Assembly (NCBI RefSeq): GCF_009914755.1
Contig: NC_060930.1
DNA length: 64,000 bases
Direction: 5' to 3' (one strand)
Origin: the human T2T-CHM13v2.0 reference genome, Homo sapiens
Of this stretch, positions 5,271 through 25,940 are shown piece by piece; within the stretch, counting starts at the first letter, position 1; every line of letters begins with the position of its first letter. Both the position numbers and the translations under genes were made by a program. The notes under the pieces were generated by a model, which was not told the origin of the DNA, did no database searches, and saw nothing but the letters and a program-made list of their open reading frames with translations.

Positions 5271-5560
5271 AGATGTACTTGATATTGTCTGACATTTATG
5301 GAGAAAAATACTGACAACACACTAGTCATCATGCTTACATGGGGAAAAATTGCGAAAATTAAGACATGCTATAAATGGGAGCATATTGACCTGGACTGTG
5401 GTCACGGGTTTTGACTGGTTTACTTTAAAGTACAGTCACCCCTCTGTATCCATGGGTAATTGGTTCCAGGACCTTCCACAGACACCAAATCTGCAGATCC
5501 TGAAGTCCCTGATATAAAGTGGAGTAGTATTTGCATATAACCCATGCACATCCTCCCATA

Positions 5561-6104
<544 letters not shown>

Positions 6105-6527
6105 TGTATTGCTTTTTAATTTGTACTGGTTTTTATGTTATATTTTTTTCCAAATATTTTGATTGGCAGTTGGTTGGATCTGCAGATGTGGAACCCACAG
6201 ATATGGGGAGCCAACTGAATTGTTTTTCTTGTTTATCTTTCCTATTTATTATTCTCTTTTTAATTTTTGACTTTTTTGAACTTTTCTTTTTAGAAATATG
6301 CTTACCCATGAATTTATTGAAAACCAAAATGTCATTATTTTAAATTAGTCCTATTCTTATTGGATCTGATTTTTTGGGGGGAAAAAACTTCCTTCTTTGA
6401 TAAATACATTTCATTCTTCTTTCTCATGTTTTTAAAGAAAAAAGTAGTATTGCTATCTCTCGTGGCCTAAATTGAGAGAGATGTCTTTGGCAATGAATAA
6501 CCTCTCCTTGTTTGAATGACTTTTTTT

Positions 6528-6705
6528 TAATTGTAGTAAAATACCATATAACATAAAATTGACCATTTTAACTAATTTTAAGTGTACAGTTCAGTGACAT
6601 TAAGTACATTCATATTGTTGTGCAGTGATCAACACTGTCTACCTCTAGAACTTTTTCCTCATCCTAGACTGAATGTATTAAACAACAATTCCGCATTCCC
6701 CCAAT
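6528..6705 (-). mobile_element. L1MB-type 3' end fragment
   Basis: aacataaaattgaccattttaac...aagtgtacagttcagtgacattaagtacattcatattgttgtgca. Confidence 0.75.
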
Positions 6706-6888
6706 GACTGTTGTCTTGAAAGGAGAAAGATAACTCTACTGAGCTTTGTTTTCTTTATGTGAATGAGCATGTAATTGTTTTAGGGATATGAGGGGAAGGA
6801 ATAGTTGCTAATGTAATGGCAAATGCAGAACCTACTGACAAAGGTATGTAATTTGTAAAATAGCTGAATGGGCAAAATTCTGATTTTT

Positions 6889-7205
6889 CAGTTGCCCTAG
6901 GCACTTCAGTGCACTTCTGATAATGATTTTCCTTGGGCATGTAGTTATTCTGATAGAAATCACATCCATGCATAACGAGTGAGCTTAATTATACATAACT
7001 ACATACATAATATGAGGTTTTACATTTTTTTATGTATACTTTCTGGTTTACAAAAGATGAGACACTAAATCCTAACTGATCTCAAAAAAAGTAGTGTACC
7101 CTCAGAGCATGAGAGTCTTAATGTATGAGTTTTCCTTTTTACAACAAGACATGTATTTTGCCCTCCCCTCTCTCGCTTTCGGGGATTGTTTTCACTATTT
7201 GGTGA
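6889..7205 (+). repeat. Left arm of long inverted repeat
   Basis: Reverse complement of 9103-9420; about 10 substitutions and 1 indel by manual alignment. Confidence 0.95.
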
Positions 7206-7369
7206 TTCCACAGTCTCATCTGGTGCCTGCTGTGACTCCCAAGACAGACAAGTGCACAAAGGCTGATTTAGGGTCTTGGATTCCTCTTGAGAATGACATA
7301 CTCAATTCATTTGTACTGATCCCAATCATTTGAGCTCAAAATAATAAAAATAAAAGTAGCCAAGATGGT

Positions 7370-7600
7370 TTGAATACTAATGTATGCCCCAGGCACTGTG
7401 CTAAACACTTTGCATATATTACTTTGTTTAATTCTCACGATTCTGTCAGATAGGAATCAAATCCCCATTTTACAAATGGGAAAACTAAGGAACAGGAAGA
7501 TGATGTAATTTGCCAGTGGCACCCAGTTGATAAGTAGCAACTGAGGAGTCAGATCCAGGCCTTCCAGAGCCCTCACTCCCACCTTCTCTATTAACACGTG
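7370..7600 (-). mobile_element. MIR
   Basis: ccaggcactgtgctaaacacttt...ccccattttacaaatgggaaaactaagg core. Confidence 0.75.
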
Positions 7601-9102
7601 CTCCTGGTCTGTATTGGGCTCAACAGCAGGATTCTCTTGGAACAGAAGTAGGTTTAAACCAACCCCACCCCACTCCCAGAAAAACCCACAGCATGCTGGA
7701 ACCCTCCATGGCTGAGGTGAGTGGCTTGTCTCAGCTAAGGCCAGGCACGAGGTCTGGAGGTAGAGGCTTTCCAGCCAGGGAAGGAAAATGGGAAGGGCGG
7801 AGCTTGCCTCCTCCTGGCTGCCATTTGTTATCTGGTTGGTGAGAAGAGATGGGAGGAAGGGGCACTGTCAGCACATTTCCAAAGGACTCGGGTCATTCTT
7901 GGTGCTCTTTGTCTCTGGTTTTGTGCCCATTGCCTAGGTCCCATAATTGCTGCATCCTTCTTAGAACTGCTCTCTATTTAGGGAACCACTTCTCCAGAAC
8001 CTAACTCTCTGGATTTACTTGTACCTCCCCACACCTCCATGCAAATTCTTCTTTCCTGAGCATAACTGATTTCAGCTGGTTGGTAGGAGAGTGGTAGGCT
8101 TAAGTGAATGGACAAAGGTGAGAATGACTCTCCTCCTCCTCACGGTTTCCTAATTCTCCCAGGAATATCGCCATATCAACATTTCTGAAAGAAGTTTCAT
8201 GCAAAGGACTTCCCAAATGAGATAGACATTTCTGGACAGGGAGGAATATTGATGGATTCTGCCAGAAACTGAGGAGGCTCAGCCACCTGTGTCCTAGAGG
8301 TCGATCAGGGTGACCCAGGAGCTTCCAGAGGGACTTCAGAGCAGCTCCTGGGCCACTCAGTCTCTGCCTTCTCCCGACTCCAGCAGGGCCAGAAACACTC
8401 TCCCAACATTTGCTCATGGTTTGCTGCTCACAGAGTACAGTCATCCACAGGCAGCTTAAAATGAGCAGAGGTAACATTTCCTGGGAGTGTTCCTAACCCC
8501 AAAGAATGTGTTTGCAGATTGTGTTCCTAATGTTCAGGAGTTAAATTCATGTTTCAGAAACAAGCACTTTACATCTGTAGGTGGCACTTTTGTGAATAAT
8601 ATTGTGGACCTTGAGTCCCATACTCTCCTCGTATCAGGAGGCAGTGTACTGCCTCCAGTTATTCTGGAGCTCTCATCTGCTCCTGCTTATTTAAGCCCTT
8701 CAGTATTTCCTACAGAGGTTAGCAGTGTTGGACTTGAATAATTGTACCTTAAATTAAACTAAAAATAATTTCTGATGATTTTCATACTGAAGCACAGTCT
8801 TTATTTCAAAATGGTGGCATAATCTTCAGCATGCCATTATCAAATAGCTCCATTGACCAATAGTGGCAGTTTGCAGTTGAGTCACGGGAAGGGTTTATTA
8901 GGACATGTTTAAAGTGATGTCATAGAAATAAAAATATGGACAGGGACCTAAAGATTACAAACTAAGGCTGTGGCTAGAGATATTCTTTAACTCCCCACCG
9001 CACTCTTGTCTTCTCTCTTGCCCCTTTTTCACATCACTATTAAGGCAACACAGTGTATGTTATCTGTGTCCTTAGCCTACTCTGAAAACACTGCCCTTGG
9101 TT

Positions 9103-9420
9103 TCACCAAATAGTGAAAACAATCCCCAAAAGGGAGAGAGGGGAGGGCAAAATACAGTGTCTTTTTGTAAAAAGGAAAACTCATACATTAGGACTCTCAT
9201 GCTCTGAGGGTACACTACTTTTTTGGAGCTCAGTTAGGATTTAGTGTCTCATCTTTTGTAAACCGGAAAGTATATGTAAAAAAATGTAAAACCTCATATT
9301 AGGTATGTAGTTATGTATAATTAAGCTCACTCGTTATGCATGGATGTGATTTCTATCAGAATAACTACATGCCCAAGGAAAATCATTATCAGAAGTGCAC
9401 TGAAGTGCCTAGGGCAACTG
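9103..9420 (-). repeat. Right arm of long inverted repeat
   Basis: Ends ...gtgcctagggcaactg, the reverse complement of cagttgccctaggcac... at 6889. Confidence 0.95.
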
Positions 9421-9563
9421 CCTATGGGTAACTTGGTCAAGTTACCCACAGCTACCACCTAGATCACACCATGACAAGAAAGAGGTGTTTTTACACTAAA
9501 CCACTCCAAAGGCAACCAGAATTGGTTTATTTTTAAGTTTTCTTTTATTTCATTTTATCATAG

Positions 9564-9704
9564 CCACTTGGAGCCAGTGACTATTTGGAACTATCAAAGA
9601 ATTTTGATACAATATTTTTACGAAACATTCCGCAATTTACTCTGGCAAACAGGACTCAAGGTCGAAGATTCATAACTCTCATCGATAACTTTTATGATCT
9701 CAAG
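9564..9704 (+). CDS. AFG1L: AFG1-like ATPase (LACE1), third-last coding exon, phase 0/0, 47 codons
   Basis: Pyrimidine tract ...ttttatcatag| acceptor and AAG|gtaagg donor. Translates PLGASDYLELSKNFDTIFLRNIPQFTLANRTQGRRFITLIDNFYDLK, the AFG1/ZapE-family 'PLG..DY...RRFITLID..YD' segment. Missed by the ORF track. Confidence 0.96.
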
Positions 9705-9749
9705 GTAAGGATGTAGTACATTTTCTTAAAACTAAACACTTTGTATTGT

Positions 9750-9950
9750 GAAGCCAGATTGCCTGGGCTGGAAATCCTGACTTAACATACTTCTATCACT
9801 TACTGCACCTCTTTGTGCCTCCATTCCCTCATGTGTGAATTGGGGATGATAATATTATTTACTTCTGAGGGTTGTTGCGAGGACTAAAAAGGCAAATCCA
9901 TGTAAAGCATTTAAAACATTTGGCACAAGCTGAATGCTGTATAAGCACTA
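9750..9950 (+). mobile_element. MIR
   Basis: ctctttgtgcctccattccctcatgtgtgaattggggatgataat core. Confidence 0.7.
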
Positions 9951-10150
9951 TCAGTAGAAGCAGCAGTAGTACTATAGTAAAGCTCCCATCACAAGACACT
10001 CTGCTATATGAATGATTGCATCATTCTACCAGACAGCTTATGCGCTTCATCTATCACGTTCTAAAACACAATGTCTTGCATAAACTGAATGCTCAGTAAG
10101 TATTTGTTGCATGAATAAATGATTGCACTGATAGAATAATGCATGAGCAA

Positions 10151-10456
10151 GCCAGGTGTGATGGCTCATGCCTATCATCCCAGCACTTTGGGAGGCCAAG
10201 GGAGGATTGCTTGAGGCCAGGCGTTCAAGACCAGCCTGGACAACATAGCAAAATCCTAGCTCTACAAAAAATAAGAAAATTAGCTGGGTGTGGTGATGAG
10301 GGCCTGTCATCCTGCCTACTTGGGAGGCTAAGGTGGGAGGATTGCTTAAGCCCAGGAGTTCAAGGTTACAGTAGTGAGTCATGATCACCCCACTGCACTG
10401 CAGCCTTCCAGCCTGGGTGACAGAGTGAGGCCCTATCTCTCAAAAAAAAAAAAAAA
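10151..10456 (+). mobile_element. Alu (J-like)
   Basis: Forward dimer with A tail. Confidence 0.9.
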
Positions 10457-10570
10457 GAAGAAGAAGAAGAAGTAGAAGGAGGAGGAGGAGGAGGAGGAGG
10501 AGGGAGGTAGGAGGAAGGAAGAAGGAAGAAGGAAGAGAAGGAGAAGGAGGAGAAGGAGAAGGAGAAGAAA
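10457..10570. repeat. (GAA)/(GGA) purine microsatellite grown from the Alu tail
   Basis: gaagaagaag...gaggaggag...ggaagaa. Confidence 0.9.
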
Positions 10571-10729
10571 ACAAATGAGTGAATGACTAGAGGACCCTTC
10601 TGAATATTGAAGCTCTCTCTCTCCCTATGACCCAGAAACCCCAGTAGCTAGCATTATACCATCTTGTTGTTTGTTTGTTTTTAATCCGCATGTTTTAGTG
10701 TGAATTGCCAAGTCACTGCCCATTCATCA

Positions 10730-11540
10730 AAGGCAGCATGGCCTACTGGTTCAAGAGTGGGCCCTGGGGTCAGGCTGTCTATCCTAAAGGCCATCTTAAT
10801 CTCTCTGAGCTTCAACTGCCTTTTCTAGAAAAAACAGATAATAATGGTACTTATAAAGTTGTTGTATTAAACAAGCATGTAAAGCACAAAGAATGTTGTC
10901 TGGCCTATGGTACGCTCTCAGTAAAAGTGAGCTATTAGTAGAATATATCTGTAAATATAGATTCATAGCAAAAGTACAATTTGAAATTAGAGTTAATTTA
11001 AATATTATTTTACCATTAGATATACTTTTTTCTCCCTATTCTTTGCACAGAATTAGATAGACCAGTGATTCTAAATTGAAGGGGCTTTGTGGGAAGAAGA
11101 TAAGCAACAGAATCTGCTGGGAGGGAGAGGTGACAATTTAATGTTTCATTTGCTCATTCATTCTGTAAACTTCATCATGCCAAGCGCTAGAAATTCAGTG
11201 GCAAGTGAAACTAGATGGTGCTTGCCTTCAAAGAGCTTAGATAGCCTGATATCAGAGAAACGTGAATCAGATGTCCACAGAACTCGATGTAAAATCACCA
11301 CTGTGGGATGACCTGTTAGACAGAGAAGGAGGCATATGGTGCTGTGAGAGTCTAGCAGGGGAGAGTGCACTGATCTATGGGGTGGGAAATCCTCTGAGGG
11401 CCACCTATGGCAGAACCATGTGGCCTACTTAAAAATCCAGATTCCAGAGCTCACCCATTCCCACCCCAGCAAATGAGTACCAGGCATGGGGCCAGGAACT
11501 GCATGTTCTCATGTTTCTCAGGTGCTTCTTATAAACGCTG
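10730..11540. mobile_element. MIR (~10730-10940), L2 (~11150-11390) and MER5-like (~11400-11540) relics
   Basis: Degenerate MIR core; L2 cattcattc..ccttcaagagctt; MER5 ggggccaggaactgcat. Confidence 0.5.
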
Positions 11541-19162: not shown

Positions 19163-20069
19163 GTAGGCGATATTAACATAATCTCTTTTTATTATAAAAC
19201 AGCTTAATTGTTTTTGGTTTGATGCATGGCTACATTTTGAAGAAGAAATGCAGTGTATAGTTAACCATTGATTGGCGCTTCTTCTATAAGCCCATGTAGC
19301 AAATTTATCATTCTCAATATCACTGAATATAGAAAATTATAAACTTACAGTGGAAGGAACCTTAGTGGTCATGTAGTTCAGTGCTCCATTTTGCATGTGA
19401 TAAAAATGAAGCCCACGGAGGTGGACTAAGGTGCCCACAGTCACACTGCTGAATAATGGCAGGCCAGAGCTGGATGCCAAACCACCTGTGCCCGGTTCTG
19501 GGCTTGCTCTGCTATACCATGCTGCCCTTTCTGGGTATCTTTCTAAATGATTGCTGGATTTGTAGAGTGCATGATACAGTATCCAAGCATGTAGGCTGGC
19601 TAGTCCAGGACCATGGAGTGCCTAGCAAGGCCCCAGGCTTGAAAAGAAATCCCTAACTAATCTCTCAACCTCCATTCTGCAAACATTTATGGAGTACCTG
19701 TGGGTGCCAGGCTCTGAGGACACTCTGTAGGGAACAAACAGATGCTAGTCCAGTTCTCCTGGAGCTTGGAGTCTGGTGATTCACCCCAGGCCAACTAGAA
19801 GTGACTTTGCGTTTTCTTCTTCTATAAGAACGTTATGAGATGTGTTTCTCAACTATTGACAACTGAAATATTAGTCAAAAGTTTACAACTATCAACACTC
19901 ACCCCATGAGGGGAGCCCAATTCTTCCAGCCCCACAGGTGAAAGACCTCTGGAACAAGGAAACAATTCCTTATCAACCTGAATAGAAATGAGGCATTTTC
20001 AGGAGTTTGGGAGAACGAGGCCAATTTAAAAAGTGAACTTTCCAATATGATGACTTAAACCTATGTGTA

Positions 20070-21799: not shown

Positions 21800-24700
21800 A
21801 CTCTAGACAAATGGTTAACGCAGGCAGAACTCCTTATTGTGGGACTTGAAGGAATCATTTTCTCATCATTAATTATGCACTTTGTCCTCTGGACCATTTT
21901 AATCTAAAATTGCTCTCAAGGATCTAGTGGATTAGTAAGTTAAACACTTAACATTTTTTAGGTCTGCTTTTTCTTATTTGGCCTTATTTCTGCACCATGA
22001 AATTAAAATCATCTCATTCCTGAAGATGAATGTAGGACCAGACATTTTAGCTTCACATTAAACCACCTGAATGAACCTTGAATGCACAAGTAAATGCAAG
22101 ACGTCTGGATACCTTCAAGCTTTGGCTGCATGGTGGTGGCATGTTAGAAATACATCTTTTATAATGGGGGAAGAATGCCCTATGTTTCAATTCAAAACAA
22201 AGACAGTTTTCCAATCTGATATAAACTAAAAGGGATAATATTTTAGAATATGGGCTTATATGTGGTTTTTTTTTTTGGTTATGAATTACAGTAAATCTCC
22301 CAGGCCTTCAGATTTCTACATAATGGAAGAATATGTTTTTAACCCTGAGATCAAGTTTAGTAGGCAGGACTTGATCTCAAGTGGTCACAAAGTTTTCTAA
22401 AAAAAAATAGAAAATTATGATGGGATCAAATAAGGAGCAAGTGTCAAATTCCAGCCAACAGGCAGATCTGCAGGCAGAGCTACAAACTCTGCAGCCAGGA
22501 ATGGGGACCAGTGAGAGAGTGTGGGCGGGGGGGTGGGTGTCAGAGTCGTAGGCACTCCAACAGCAGAGGAGACTCCCGCTCACATGAGGCCAGCCGTACC
22601 CCAGTGGACAGCAGGCTCCTTCTCACTGTTGTAGACACTTGCTCTCCTTGCAGCATGCTGCCCCCGCCCTTGCCGCCAACTCTGCCGTGAGATGGACCTA
22701 ATAGGAAATAGGAAAGAAAGCCTGACAAGCCTGCTTCACAGGAAATCTGATTTGTCCTTCACTGAGCTCATCTTTTGCTTCTTTGAGTAAAACCTGGCTT
22801 TACTAACTATTGTCACAAAGTGGATCTTCGGCTGTGGATGAGTGTGAAAAACAGAAAAAATATAAAATCCACAAAATCTTGTGAAAATTAAGCATTTGGG
22901 GGAAGGTAAGGCATAGGTGAGTCAGTCCAATGAATACAATGGTCAACATAAGTAAGCTCTTTGAACCTATTTATTTTCTATTTATTATTATTTTTATTTT
23001 TTATATCTTGGCCACTCTAGCCATCTCCTGGCAGGGGTAGTGTGGCACAGCATGGCCCTATTTAATTTCTTAGTCAATAATCCATCACATAGTCTCTTTT
23101 AGATATTAACCTAATTAAGGCAAGCAGGTAGATGGATGAGTACCCAAGCCGAGAGAAGAGTTTAAATCAAGCCTTCTGTAAATAAAATGTGGTTTAAAGA
23201 TATTTTTATTGAAGTGAAACACAGTAATTTCAAAGAGGTTACGTAATAGGGAGAAAGGATGGGAAATAACCACTTTGTGCTGGATTGAATGCTATATATT
23301 TACATTAGCTCAGTTAAAAAAAATAGTCTTAGAAAGTGAATATTATAACCCCTGTTTAAAAATAAGAAAACTGAGTCTTGGGAAAGTTAAGTAGCTTGAC
23401 CTGAGATTCACAGTTTACAACTACAAAACTCATATACTATATTTTATAACACACTGTCTCTTACTCTTACTATTTAAAAAAAAGAGATTGTTTTAAAAAT
23501 TGATTCATTTAACTCAGTGAATGAAGTTGAAGATAAATTCACAACAGAACCATTGATTTGAACTCAGTGAATATAAAATGTTTAACTTTATTCTTTAGAT
23601 CTTAGCTTTTTACTTTTCACATTCCTTTGGTAATTATTCTGTATCTTAATTTTTAAAAAAATCATGTGAATGGACAGACAGATAGATGGACAGTATGACC
23701 GATAGACAGACCTGTCCCTGAGTGTGAGTGTATGTAGAAGAGTCCCCCTGTCAAGTTATGTTATAAAAGTTCATCTGAGGTCAGATATTGGGAATAAAGT
23801 TTCATTTTTCCATCGAAACAATCACGTAATGTTAGTTGGGGTGCTGGTCAAACGCATAGAAGCCTATGTAATTCTCAGTGTAGCTTCCCTATAATGTCAT
23901 TTTGGTACGAAAGAACTTAAACCCTGAGAAAAAAACTGTAGCTCAGTCTCCACCTAAGTAACTGGAGCATGTGCCCACTTCTGTGCCCCCAATCCGCAAT
24001 CTCCTTCCCCAGTTCCAGGGGCCTGCTGGGATTGGCTGCAGTGGAAGAGGCTCTTTGAGCTGGGAGAAGGGTTTATGCAGAAAGTGGGGCTAGAAGGCTT
24101 TGGCTGGATCTCTGGAGGGGAGGGAGTTCCATGGTGGCTGGAAATCTCCAAAGCTGGTTTCATAAAATAGCATGCAAGAAAAAAACCCAAGTCTTCAAGA
24201 ATAGCCATCACTAGGAAACAGTATGGTAGCTCTACTAAAAGAAAAGTAATGCCAACATGAAAAACAACCCCTAGATTGGAGAGCAACATTTCACTTTATA
24301 TGTCTTTCTTCTGAGCCCTGCCCCTATTACATTCTCAGCATTCCAGTCTTTCTCCATAGAAGTCTCTCAGCAAATGCTCTTTTTTTGAAATGCTTTAAAT
24401 GTATACTTTGAGACGGAGGTTTGAGCTGAGTACTGCTGTGGAAAGCTCCTGCTCAATTCAAAACACAGACCGGGGGGATGTCTTTAGAGTCAGGAGAAAA
24501 CATCATGTGCCAAGGGTGCTCTCCAAACTGATGACTAGTTCCCAGACTTAACAGAGGTCAAGCGGAGAAAAAGGAAAACTTTCTTTAGAGAAGAAAAAGA
24601 AAAATCTTATCACTTCTCATATTTCTTTAGGCAGTGTATGAGCTTATTTGCTGATATCACTAATCCTGAGATGAAAAACAGGATGGACTTAAGTAATTTT

Positions 24701-25729
24701 TAACCTATTTCTGAGGCCAAAAAGACTGTAGTATTATTTTAATCAAATTTATGCATTTTCAGTGGGACTTCAAATTTTAATAATAAGGCAATACTTTTAT
24801 CTTCTTAAAGTATATTTCCTGTACTTATAAGTGTGCAAATGACATAATTTTAAAATTAGTTGGAATATTGAAAAAAATTAAAATTTCACTTGTAAAATAA
24901 GTGGATGTGCTTATATCCATTTATTTATTTAAGAAACACATGATGTTTTCTGTGTCCTGGGCATGGTTCTATGTGCTTTATAAATAAACTCTTTTGATCC
25001 ATATAACAGTCTTATGAGATAGGTGCCATTATAATCATTTTATAGACAGGGAAGCTGAGACACAGAAAACAGCTAAAACAGATTAATGAATTGCTAAGAT
25101 ATAACCGAAGTCAATAAAATTAGCAAAGTGCTAACGTATTAAATTTTCCATTTCATTGCCTCTGTCCTGAAAACAGTATTGCTGGTCCAAGTAACTTGAA
25201 CCTACACTTGACGGCTGCTTTATCTGAGATTAAAAACATGCAGAAGGATTGGGCGCCTGGGTCCCTGACATTTGGGTTCTTGATCAGTTACGGGAATCTG
25301 TCTTGCAGCAAGTCTGTAAGTTACCTTTATTAGATTTACTAATCTCAAAAGAAGTCACTTGCTGGTAGGAAAGGATTTTCTTTGGAAATGAGTTTATAAC
25401 TTCTTTTACAGTCAGAATTAAGATGAATGTTCCCTATTGGCATATAGCAGTTCATTTTTCTGGAACAGAAAATTACAAATGTTAAAATCTGCCCTCTTGT
25501 CGAGTGTCTACTGACTCAGTCCAGCAGCTCACTAGGACCCTCACATCTGTTGCCCTAGCTGGTCATTCGGTCCAGTCAAACATGCCTGTCCACTGACCTT
25601 TCGTCTGTGCTGCATGGAGCCATCAGTCTGTCTTACCTGCTTGCCTAGGGGGCTTTCTGGATGTCGTCCCGAGAATTTTCCTGTCTCAGGGCTGTACTTT
25701 CTGGGTTCCCGGTGGTTGATTGCTGGTCT

Positions 25730-25940
25730 CTAATGATGCAGTGGAAAGGGCTTGAGATCTGGCATTGGAAAATTCAGTTCTGCTAATTATTGTTTTGTGA
25801 CCTCGACCAAGATAGTGCTCTGAGCCTCAGTTGTGTCATCTTATAAATGGGAATCATAATGCCCATTTCATAGAGTTACTATGAGGATTGTTGGTGAAAA
25901 GCGCTTTGCAAATGGCAAAGGATTAAACGAACATCAGTTG
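25730..25940 (+). mobile_element. MIR
   Basis: ctctgagcctcagttgtgtcatcttataaatgggaatcataat core. Confidence 0.7.

What the first reader, a model, noticed from the sequence alone, without database searches (positions are those of the whole stretch)
6889..9420. Long near-perfect inverted repeat of apparently non-transposon DNA just upstream of an AFG1L exon
Seen: 6889-7205 is the reverse complement of 9103-9420 (~317 bp, about 10 substitutions plus 1 indel, ~96%), with a ~1.9-kb spacer. The arms do not resemble Alu, L1, MIR or any TIR I recognise. I see no TSD and no transposase remnant in the spacer. The right arm ends 143 nt before the 9564 splice acceptor. Inference: in AFG1L pre-mRNA the arms could pair into a ~300-bp duplex much more perfect than typical inverted-Alu duplexes. 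That would be a strong ADAR/dsRNA-sensor substrate and could affect inclusion of the adjacent in-frame exon. At DNA level it is a substrate for recurrent inversion of the spacer.
Basis: partly seen in the sequence, partly recalled or inferred. Interest (0 to 1): 0.8.

Follow-up and report, generated by a model that had tools for sequence, protein, structure and literature searches.

The report
Unique inverted duplication in AFG1L intron
Two 320-base copies of otherwise unique DNA lie in opposite orientation 1.9 kb apart in an AFG1L intron and can pair into a long RNA hairpin; the pair is real but already sits in a published catalogue of such structures, and no function has been shown.

Summary
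Arms 6889-7210 and 9098-9420 are reverse complements: 307 of 318 columns identical, with 10 substitutions and 1 indel.

- **Not a repeat family.** A whole-genome search with each arm finds only the two arms (2 of 2 candidates). The same search finds old repeats at 71-86% identity nearby. There is no target-site duplication and no Pfam match in the frames scanned.
- **Predicted RNA hairpin.** 314 of 322 left-arm bases pair with the right arm. Duplex energy is -551 kcal/mol against -145 for shuffles.
- **Already catalogued.** Barak et al. 2020 (PMC7006430), Table S8, lists it among 197 long, tight inverted duplicates in human pre-mRNAs. It is weakly expressed (FPKM 0.0175), and its editing values fit only about five A-to-G mismatches.
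- **Most likely origin.** A neutral local inverted duplication about 10-25 Myr old, dated from arm divergence.

Effects on splicing, dsRNA sensing and spacer inversion remain untested. Interest is low to moderate.

The parts
6889..7210 (+). Left arm of the inverted repeat (secure homology 6889-7205; the last 5 nt match 3 of 5)
   Evidence: It has 90 A's over 6889-7206. A whole-genome search finds only this arm and its partner.
7211..9097 (.). Spacer of 1887 nt, which becomes the loop of the predicted RNA hairpin. It is unique in the genome except for one MIR.
   Evidence: all 27 non-self matches fall in query 173-328, that is window 7383-7538. No Pfam family matched in the 19 frames scanned, out of 33 stop-to-stop frames of 40 aa or more.
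7390..7545 (+). MIR-type SINE copy inside the spacer. The name MIR is my recognition of the sequence; no call supplied it.
   Evidence: A profile built from 27 genomic relatives hits it at E = 1.9e-37. Genomic relatives are 71-97% identical, so it is much older than the 97% arms.
9098..9420 (-). Right arm, the reverse complement of the left arm
   Evidence: It has 110 A's over 9103-9420.
9422..9451 (.). 30-nt near-palindrome that starts 2 nt after the outer end of the right arm
   Evidence: Self-match at 87%, E = 0.002 within the 5.5-kb region; sequence shown. Any role in how the duplication arose is speculation.
9421..9563 (+). 143 nt of unique intron between the right arm and the acceptor, including the polypyrimidine tract and AG
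   Evidence: One search finds only the self match in the genome. One search shows the tract followed by ...tcatag|CCACTT.
9564..9704 (+). AFG1L exon of 141 nt (47 codons, in frame) that encodes a conserved part of the ATPase
   Evidence: Hub annotation. The translation is open and matches Pfam PF03969 AFG1_ATPase positions 273-316 of 361, E = 2.8e-11.

Best explanation
This is a lineage-specific local inverted duplication of about 320 bp of unique intronic DNA, and not a mobile element. It most likely arose once in the ape or catarrhine lineage, roughly 10-25 Myr ago judged from arm divergence. The likely cause is a replication or repair accident: either an inverted copy inserted 2.2 kb away, or a small inversion with a duplicated breakpoint. 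It then became fixed as neutral intron sequence.

Both arms lie in one AFG1L intron on the sense strand. The pre-mRNA can therefore fold into a hairpin of about 318 bp that is about 97.5% paired, with a 1.9-kb loop. ADAR edits this hairpin at a low level in the nucleus, and it is discarded with the intron.

Shown: the repeat, its uniqueness in the genome, its sharp ends, the predicted pairing, and its published listing with low expression and a few A-to-G mismatches. Inferred: the age, the mechanism of origin, and the absence of any effect on splicing or immunity.
For: **Structure**
- 307/318 identity with sharp ends.

**Not a repeat family**
- Each arm finds 2 of 2 candidates genome-wide, both being the arms themselves, even at E <= 10.
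- The same tool finds 27 MIR relatives of the spacer at 71-97% identity.
- For the repeat at 6511-6703 it makes 2532 first-look candidates and scores 40, giving 40 non-self matches at 72-86%. Old repeats are therefore within its reach.
- No direct repeat of 4 nt or more abuts the ends of the whole element.
- None of the 19 scanned frames has a Pfam match.
- Rfam finds nothing in the arms: 6 matches at E <= 1 in 6000-10500, all outside the arms.
- The spacer holds a MIR far more diverged than the arms. The 2.5-kb unit is therefore not one young insertion.

**Independent decay since duplication**
- Four of the 10 substitutions are CpG transitions. One site reads TG in one arm and CA in the other.

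**RNA**
- Cofold energy is -550.9 kcal/mol against -145.1 +/- 4.9 for 20 shuffles.
- 314 of 322 left-arm bases pair with the right arm in the minimum-energy fold of 6889-9420, and 312 when 500 nt are added on each side.
- Four of the 10 substitutions stay paired as G-U.

**Published record: PMC7006430, Table S8**
- The row reads hg19 chr6 108828739-108829056 / 108830953-108831271, length 318, 96.23% identity.
- In the 15-tissue pool the editing index is 1.65% and 3.51%, FPKM is 0.0175, there are 5.34 inosines per transcript, and residual identity is 94.5%.
- The A counts of the window's arms, 90 and 110, reproduce the table's 5.343 and 12.075 inosines per transcript exactly (my arithmetic). 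The row is therefore this repeat.
Against: - No outgroup genome could be reached. The age, the identity of the copied arm and the history of spacer orientation are all unverified.
- Gene conversion between the arms would make the divergence date too young. The outermost 118 nt are identical, and a difference-free run that long has P = 0.045. This is a post hoc test and only suggestive.
- Five of the six non-CpG substitutions are transversions, which is unusual for neutral decay. The numbers are tiny.
- Neutrality is assumed, not shown. Barak et al. report that long tight duplexes are depleted even from pre-mRNAs, so persistence here could reflect low expression or some use.
- The editing evidence is weak. 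The index values fit 3/182 and 2/57 mismatches (my arithmetic). Site 9128 could mimic A-to-G if reads cross-map between arms.
Confidence: 0.75

Rival explanations
1. The repeat is the footprint of a small inversion. A roughly 2.2-kb segment was inverted after staggered breaks or template switching, which duplicated one breakpoint in inverted orientation. Under this reading the spacer is now reversed relative to the ancestral intron. It is a sub-hypothesis about origin and is compatible with the best explanation.
For: The geometry fits: sharp ends, no target-site duplication around the whole unit and unique DNA. [quoted passage not shown] The staggered-break model itself is recalled from the Drosophila literature and was not read here.
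Against: Nothing in the sequence polarises the spacer. A strand-skew test was inconclusive: spacer TA skew is +0.03 and GC skew -0.04, against window-to-window standard deviations of 0.16 and 0.07. No old repeat is split at a junction; the MIR profile finds nothing at either arm boundary. ACTGCC at 9090-9095 and 9417-9422 brackets the right arm. That hints instead at a simple insertion of the right arm, but it is not significant.
Confidence: 0.3
2. The repeat is a non-autonomous DNA transposon with long terminal inverted repeats, or a pair of solo LTRs or other repeats inserted head to head.
For: It has inverted termini of about 320 nt. The right arm read on the + strand starts with TG and has CA near its end, as seen in the sequence.
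Against: Only two copies of the arm exist in the whole genome, although the search detects repeats at 71-86% identity. There is no target-site duplication. None of the 19 scanned frames has a Pfam match. The interior is unique DNA plus a much older MIR. The hub's list of the longest masked stretches includes items as short as 283 nt but neither arm.
Confidence: 0.03
3. The hairpin is a functional cis-element. It recruits ADAR or other dsRNA-binding proteins next to the 3' splice site, or it draws the flanking inverted Alus together. Either way it would tune inclusion or back-splicing of the 141-nt exon.
For: The duplex ends 143 nt from the acceptor of an in-frame exon that encodes a conserved ATPase segment. 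Inverted Alus at 5563-5897 and 10115-10459 bracket both the exon and the repeat. The structure persists although such duplexes are depleted from pre-mRNAs.
Against: The duplex does not cover the polypyrimidine tract, the AG or the exon. Expression of the arm regions is very low, FPKM 0.0175. Searches found no paper that links AFG1L or LACE1 with editing, inverted repeats or circRNA. The arms show ordinary decay, including CpG loss.
Confidence: 0.08
4. The arms mediate recurrent inversion of the spacer by non-allelic homologous recombination, so both orientations segregate in humans.
For: The arms exceed 90% identity, and their length lies within the range of inverted repeats at validated human inversions, 140 bp to 134 kb (PMC13629690, passage).
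Against: The longest perfect block is only 118 nt. In PMC6748972 the inversions attributed to this mechanism had repeats of 654 bp to 24.2 kb. No hit for the gene names or coordinates turned up in 12 of 18 supplementary files of PMC6748972. None turned up in the main texts of PMC3961182 and PMC13629690 either. The supplements of PMC13629690 and of the large long-read surveys could not be seen, so absence is not shown.
Confidence: 0.12

Closest known systems
Long, nearly perfect inverted duplicated sequences in human pre-mRNAs (Barak et al. 2020, Genome Biol 21:26, PMC7006430)
   Same: It meets that paper's criteria of more than 300 bp and more than 96% identity with both arms in one RefSeq pre-mRNA. 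It is literally one of the 197 rows of Table S8. By the table's values it is among those with FPKM > 0.01 whose editing brings residual identity below 96%.
   Different: The paper does not discuss this locus, its host gene or its origin. Most such structures pair repetitive elements (passages), whereas here the arms are unique DNA.
Inverted Alu pairs, the usual ADAR substrates in introns and 3' UTRs
   Same: Arm length of about 300 nt, a loop of about 2 kb, intronic location and A-to-G mismatches on both arms. For edited repetitive dsRNAs the medians are 297 bp, a 2035-nt loop and 84.7% paired (PMC11838218, Table 1).
   Different: The arms are not Alu or any detectable repeat. Pairing is about 97.5% rather than about 85%. 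The arms derive from each other, not from two independent insertions.
Inverted repeats that mediate polymorphic inversions (the HsInv set; PMC6748972, PMC13629690)
   Same: A pair of repeats above 90% identity in inverted orientation flanking a few kilobases.
   Different: No evidence of two orientations was found. The arms are shorter than the 654 bp to 24.2 kb of the 24 inversions attributed to non-allelic homologous recombination in PMC6748972, and the longest perfect block is 118 nt.
DNA transposons with terminal inverted repeats
   Same: Inverted termini around an internal segment.
   Different: There is no target-site duplication, no other copy in the genome and no transposase trace, and the interior contains an older SINE.
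Segmental duplications (at least 1 kb and at least 90% identity, the definition quoted in PMC13629690)
   Same: A duplicate of non-repeat DNA at high identity.
   Different: The arms are only 318-322 nt, below the 1-kb threshold, so segmental-duplication tracks would not list them.

Membership tests
Long tight inverted duplicated sequence in a pre-mRNA (Barak 2020 criteria) | Arm length above 300 bp | tested here: met
   318 aligned columns, or 322-323 nt by the repeat finder and blastn.
Long tight inverted duplicated sequence in a pre-mRNA (Barak 2020 criteria) | Identity above 96% | tested here: met
   307/318 = 96.5%. The table gives 96.23% for hg19. Over 323 columns identity is 95.98%, so it sits just at the threshold.
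Long tight inverted duplicated sequence in a pre-mRNA (Barak 2020 criteria) | Both arms lie within one transcript, in opposite orientation | tested here: met
   Both arms lie in the intron upstream of exon 9564-9704 of AFG1L on the + strand (hub annotation). The table row confirms it.
ADAR substrate | A-to-G mismatches in RNA-seq on both arms | tested here: inconclusive
   Published editing index is 1.65% and 3.51% in 15 tissues, and 11.76% and 1.35% in muscle. The values fit 3/182, 2/57, 2/17 and 1/74 (my arithmetic), which is very few reads. One arm-difference site, 9128, could mimic editing.
DNA transposon with terminal inverted repeats | Target-site duplication flanking the element | tested here: not met
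   No exact direct repeat of 4 nt or more within +/-4 nt of the two outer ends.
DNA transposon with terminal inverted repeats | Other copies of the family in the genome | tested here: not met
   2 of 2 candidates are the arms themselves. The spacer is unique apart from the MIR.
DNA transposon with terminal inverted repeats | Transposase coding remnant (autonomous copies only) | tested here: not met
   None of the 19 scanned frames has a Pfam match at E <= 1. Of the 33 stop-to-stop frames of 40 aa or more, the 14 not scanned were shorter than about 50 aa.
Inverted pair of a known interspersed repeat (Alu, L1, MIR, LTR) | The arms belong to a multi-copy family | tested here: not met
   Rfam SRP-like hits mark the Alu at 10151-10441 but nothing in the arms. 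The MIR profile does not hit the arms. No Dfam or RepeatMasker run was possible.
Polymorphic inversion mediated by inverted repeats | Both orientations of the spacer observed among haplotypes | not testable with these tools
   Only one haplotype is held. The literature look-ups found no entry, but the key supplements were not visible.
Segmental duplication | Length of at least 1 kb | tested here: not met
   The arms are 318-323 nt and homology ends sharply.

The most novel reading that the evidence does not exclude
The hairpin could be an ape-specific cis-regulatory dsRNA. Folding would loop out 1.9 kb and bring the upstream antisense Alu (5563-5897) within about 1.7 kb of the downstream sense Alu (10115-10459). 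ADAR and other dsRNA binders would also be loaded 143 nt from the acceptor. Either effect could shift the balance between inclusion, skipping and back-splicing of the 141-nt exon that encodes a conserved AFG1 ATPase segment. When the intron is retained or its lariat persists, the 318-bp near-perfect duplex could become one of the few non-repeat self ligands for MDA5.
Probability: 0.07. Interest if true: 0.55.

Novelty: already known. Interest (0 to 1): 0.27.

Why it matters
Long, nearly perfect self-dsRNAs are rare. Barak et al. count 197 in human RefSeq pre-mRNAs, and dsRNAscan counts 2,018 genome-wide, of which 88% are intergenic and most pair LINEs. They are the prime suspects for the ADAR1-dependent self ligands of MDA5.

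This one is unusual in being made of unique DNA inside an expressed gene, next to a conserved exon. That makes it a clean natural test case for how an intronic 300-bp duplex is edited and tolerated, and for how small inverted duplications arise.

As it stands it is a catalogued, weakly expressed intronic structure with no demonstrated effect. Its practical value is as a candidate for the comparative and minigene tests listed under next steps.

Tried and rejected
2. **MIR split by an arm.** By eye, 9421-9470 looked like a MIR core. That would have shown the right arm inserted into a MIR. A MIR profile built from 27 genomic loci found 15 MIR hits in the window at E <= 10 but none at the arm junctions. 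It found none at E <= 100 with filters off in 8900-9600 and 6700-7400. In one search the hit table was empty, and the second command, which was to print alignments, failed on a syntax slip. The idea was dropped.
3. **Extension of homology beyond the arms, or cross-homology between flanks.** Four local-alignment tests against 2000 shuffles gave P = 0.63, 0.65, 0.08 and 0.72. Nothing was found.
4. **Strand-skew test for a past inversion of the spacer.** Inconclusive, because window-to-window variance exceeds any expected signal.
5. **Target-site duplication or microhomology.** None for the whole unit. ACTGCC lies near both ends of the right arm and TGATT near both ends of the left arm. With the +/-4 nt tolerance and five tests, these are within chance.
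6. **Literature on this locus.** Six full-text searches were run: LACE1 + inversion + inverted repeats; LACE1 + A-to-I; AFG1L + inverted repeat; AFG1L + ADAR; LACE1 + ADAR; and circAFG1L/circLACE1 variants. None returned a relevant paper.
7. **Inversion catalogues.**
   - No hit in 12 of 18 supplementary files of PMC6748972; files 13-18 were not searched.
   - No mention in the main texts of PMC13629690 and PMC3961182.
   - The Cell 2022 inversion paper is not held.
   - Only one small supplementary file of the dsRNAscan preprint is held, and it had no hit.
8. **Rfam.** Nothing in the arms. A RAGATH-25 hit at 7619-7657 with E = 0.94 is chance.
Full report
**Observation**

- The repeat finder reports arms 6889-7151/9158-9420 (263 nt, 97%) and 7152-7210/9098-9156 (59 nt, 93%). 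This is one repeat interrupted by a single-base indel.
- blastn of the left arm against the reverse complement of the right arm gives 307 of 318 identities with one gap, E = 1e-153.
- A sensitive self-comparison of 5500-11000 gives 95.98% over 323 columns, E = 7e-121.
- The spacer is 1887 nt.
- The right arm ends 143 nt before the acceptor at 9564.
- The exon 9564-9704 is 141 nt and in frame. It encodes AFG1_ATPase profile positions 273-316 of 361, E = 2.8e-11.
- Homology stops sharply at both ends. Four flank comparisons against 2000 shuffles gave P of 0.08 or more.

**What the arms are**

The window's own 3.1-Gb genome could be searched.
- Each arm finds two candidates and two matches, itself and its partner, even at E <= 10.
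- This is not a blind spot of the tool.
  - With the spacer as query it returns 27 non-self matches at 71-97% identity. All lie in query 173-328, window 7383-7538, which I recognise as a MIR SINE.
  - With the left flank it makes 2532 first-look candidates, scores 40, and returns 40 non-self matches at 72-86% for a roughly 190-nt interspersed repeat at 6511-6703.
  - The 143 nt between the right arm and the exon are unique.
- There is no target-site duplication around the whole unit.
- Of the 33 stop-to-stop frames of 40 aa or more, the 19 scanned gave no Pfam match at E <= 1.
- Rfam has no hit in the arms.
- The hub's list of the longest masked stretches reaches down to 283 nt and includes neither arm.

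A transposon with long terminal inverted repeats, or two head-to-head copies of a repeat family, is therefore very unlikely. No Dfam or RepeatMasker run was possible, so a very old, very diverged repeat origin of the duplicated sequence cannot be excluded. That would not change the conclusion that one arm is a recent copy of the other.

**Age and origin (inferred)**

- Four of the 10 substitutions are CpG transitions. At one site the left arm reads TG and the right arm reads CA, so the two arms lost the same ancestral CpG independently after duplication.
- Overall divergence is 3.1%. With hominoid neutral rates recalled from general knowledge (human-chimpanzee about 1.2%, human-orangutan about 3%, human-macaque about 6.5%), the duplication falls roughly 10-25 Myr ago if there has been no gene conversion.
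- The outermost 118 nt are identical. A difference-free run that long has P = 0.045 in simulation. This is a post hoc, borderline hint of gene conversion, which would make the true age older.
- I could not decide which arm is the copy, or whether the spacer was inverted in the event.
  - A strand-skew test was inconclusive.
  - No old repeat is split at a junction.
  - The short direct repeats near the arm ends are within chance.
  - A 30-nt near-palindrome starts 2 nt beyond the right arm. It may or may not have been the site of the initiating break.

**RNA level**

Both arms are in one AFG1L intron on the sense strand.
- ViennaRNA cofold gives -550.9 kcal/mol for the two arms, against -145.1 +/- 4.9 for 20 shuffles of the right arm.
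- In the minimum-energy fold of 6889-9420, 314 of 322 left-arm bases pair with the right arm. With 500 nt of added context on each side the number is 312.
- Four of the 10 substitutions remain G-U pairs.
- For comparison, edited repetitive dsRNAs in the dsRNAscan preprint have medians of 297 bp, 84.7% paired and a 2035-nt loop (PMC11838218, Table 1, passages).

**Already in print**

Barak et al. 2020 (PMC7006430; abstract, passages, and supplementary file 1 part 6 read) aligned every pre-mRNA to itself. Table S8 of that paper lists all 197 human inverted duplicates longer than 300 bp with identity above 96%.

One row is hg19 chr6 108828739-108829056 / 108830953-108831271, length 318, 96.23% identity.
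- The start-to-start distance of 2214 equals 9103 minus 6889.
- The A counts of the window's arms, 90 and 110, reproduce the table's inosines per transcript for both pools (5.343 and 12.075) from its editing indices (my arithmetic).
- The row is therefore this repeat.

| Pool | Editing index, arm 1 / arm 2 | FPKM | Inosines per transcript | Residual identity |
|---|---|---|---|---|
| 15 tissues | 1.65% / 3.51% | 0.0175 | 5.34 | 94.5% |
| Muscle | 11.76% / 1.35% | 0.0072 | 12.07 | 92.4% |

By the paper's stated criteria this places it among the 20 of 197 with FPKM above 0.01. It is also among the 7 of those whose editing brings identity below 96%. That is my deduction from the row; the paper does not name the locus.

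The evidence is thin.
- The indices fit 3/182 and 2/57 mismatches in the 15-tissue pool, and 2/17 and 1/74 in muscle.
- FPKM 0.0175 corresponds to about 7 reads per arm in 1.343 billion (my arithmetic).
- At site 9128 a read from the other arm would look like an A-to-G change.

The dsRNAscan preprint counts 2,018 dsRNAs above 300 bp and 96% paired genome-wide. Of these, 88% are intergenic and most lie between inverted LINEs. This repeat would qualify, but the preprint's tables are not held.

**Interpretation**

ADAR editing is weakly supported by published data.

The other claims are not supported by anything I could reach.
- **dsRNA sensors.** The duplex is intronic, and both catalogue papers stress that such structures are removed by splicing before reaching cytoplasmic sensors.
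- **Splicing.** The duplex ends 143 nt upstream of the acceptor and leaves the polypyrimidine tract and AG free.
- **Inversion.**
  - The arms fall within the size range of repeats at validated human inversions, 140 bp to 134 kb (PMC13629690).
  - The longest perfect block is only 118 nt.
  - No entry for the locus was found where I could look. The decisive supplements were not visible.
- **Literature.** Six full-text searches found no paper on this locus.

**Verdict**

This is a real, genome-unique, probably ape-lineage inverted micro-duplication. It makes one of the rare long tight intronic dsRNAs of the human transcriptome. It is already catalogued, weakly expressed and barely edited, and most likely neutral. 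It is worth a comparative-genomics look, because it would be a clean example of how such duplications arise, but it is not a surprising finding.

Noticed in passing
window 5563-5897 and 10115-10459: Two Alu-like elements lie in opposite orientation (70% over 354 columns). They bracket both exon 9564-9704 and the whole inverted repeat. The downstream one gives SRP-like Rfam hits on the + strand. This geometry is known to favour back-splicing. No circAFG1L or circLACE1 paper was found.
   Followed up: partly
window 5777-5941 and 5941-6105: A 165-nt tandem duplication at 95% identity abuts or overlaps the upstream Alu.
   Followed up: no
window 6511-6703: An interspersed repeat of about 190 nt with 2532 first-look candidates genome-wide. 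The 40 non-self matches listed are 72-86% identical. The family was not identified.
   Followed up: no
window 9422-9451: A 30-nt near-palindrome (87% self-complementary, E = 0.002 in 5.5 kb) starts 2 nt after the outer end of the right arm. It could mark the break site that led to the duplication, but this is untested.
   Followed up: partly
window 9090-9095 and 9417-9422: The hexamer ACTGCC lies near both ends of the right arm. It is compatible with microhomology or a short target duplication if the right arm is the inserted copy, but it is within chance given the tolerance used.
   Followed up: partly
window 6889-7006 / 9303-9420: The outermost 118 nt of the arms are identical, and all 11 differences lie in the inner 200 nt. 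P = 0.045 for so long a run. This may be a gene-conversion tract or chance.
   Followed up: partly
window 9799-9918 (-), 10771-10893 (-), 19384-19467 (+), 23328-23420 (+), 24960-25068 (+), 25778-25911 (-) and others: Further MIR-type copies in the window, found with the profile built here: 15 hits at E <= 10, 13 of them at E <= 1e-4.
   Followed up: no
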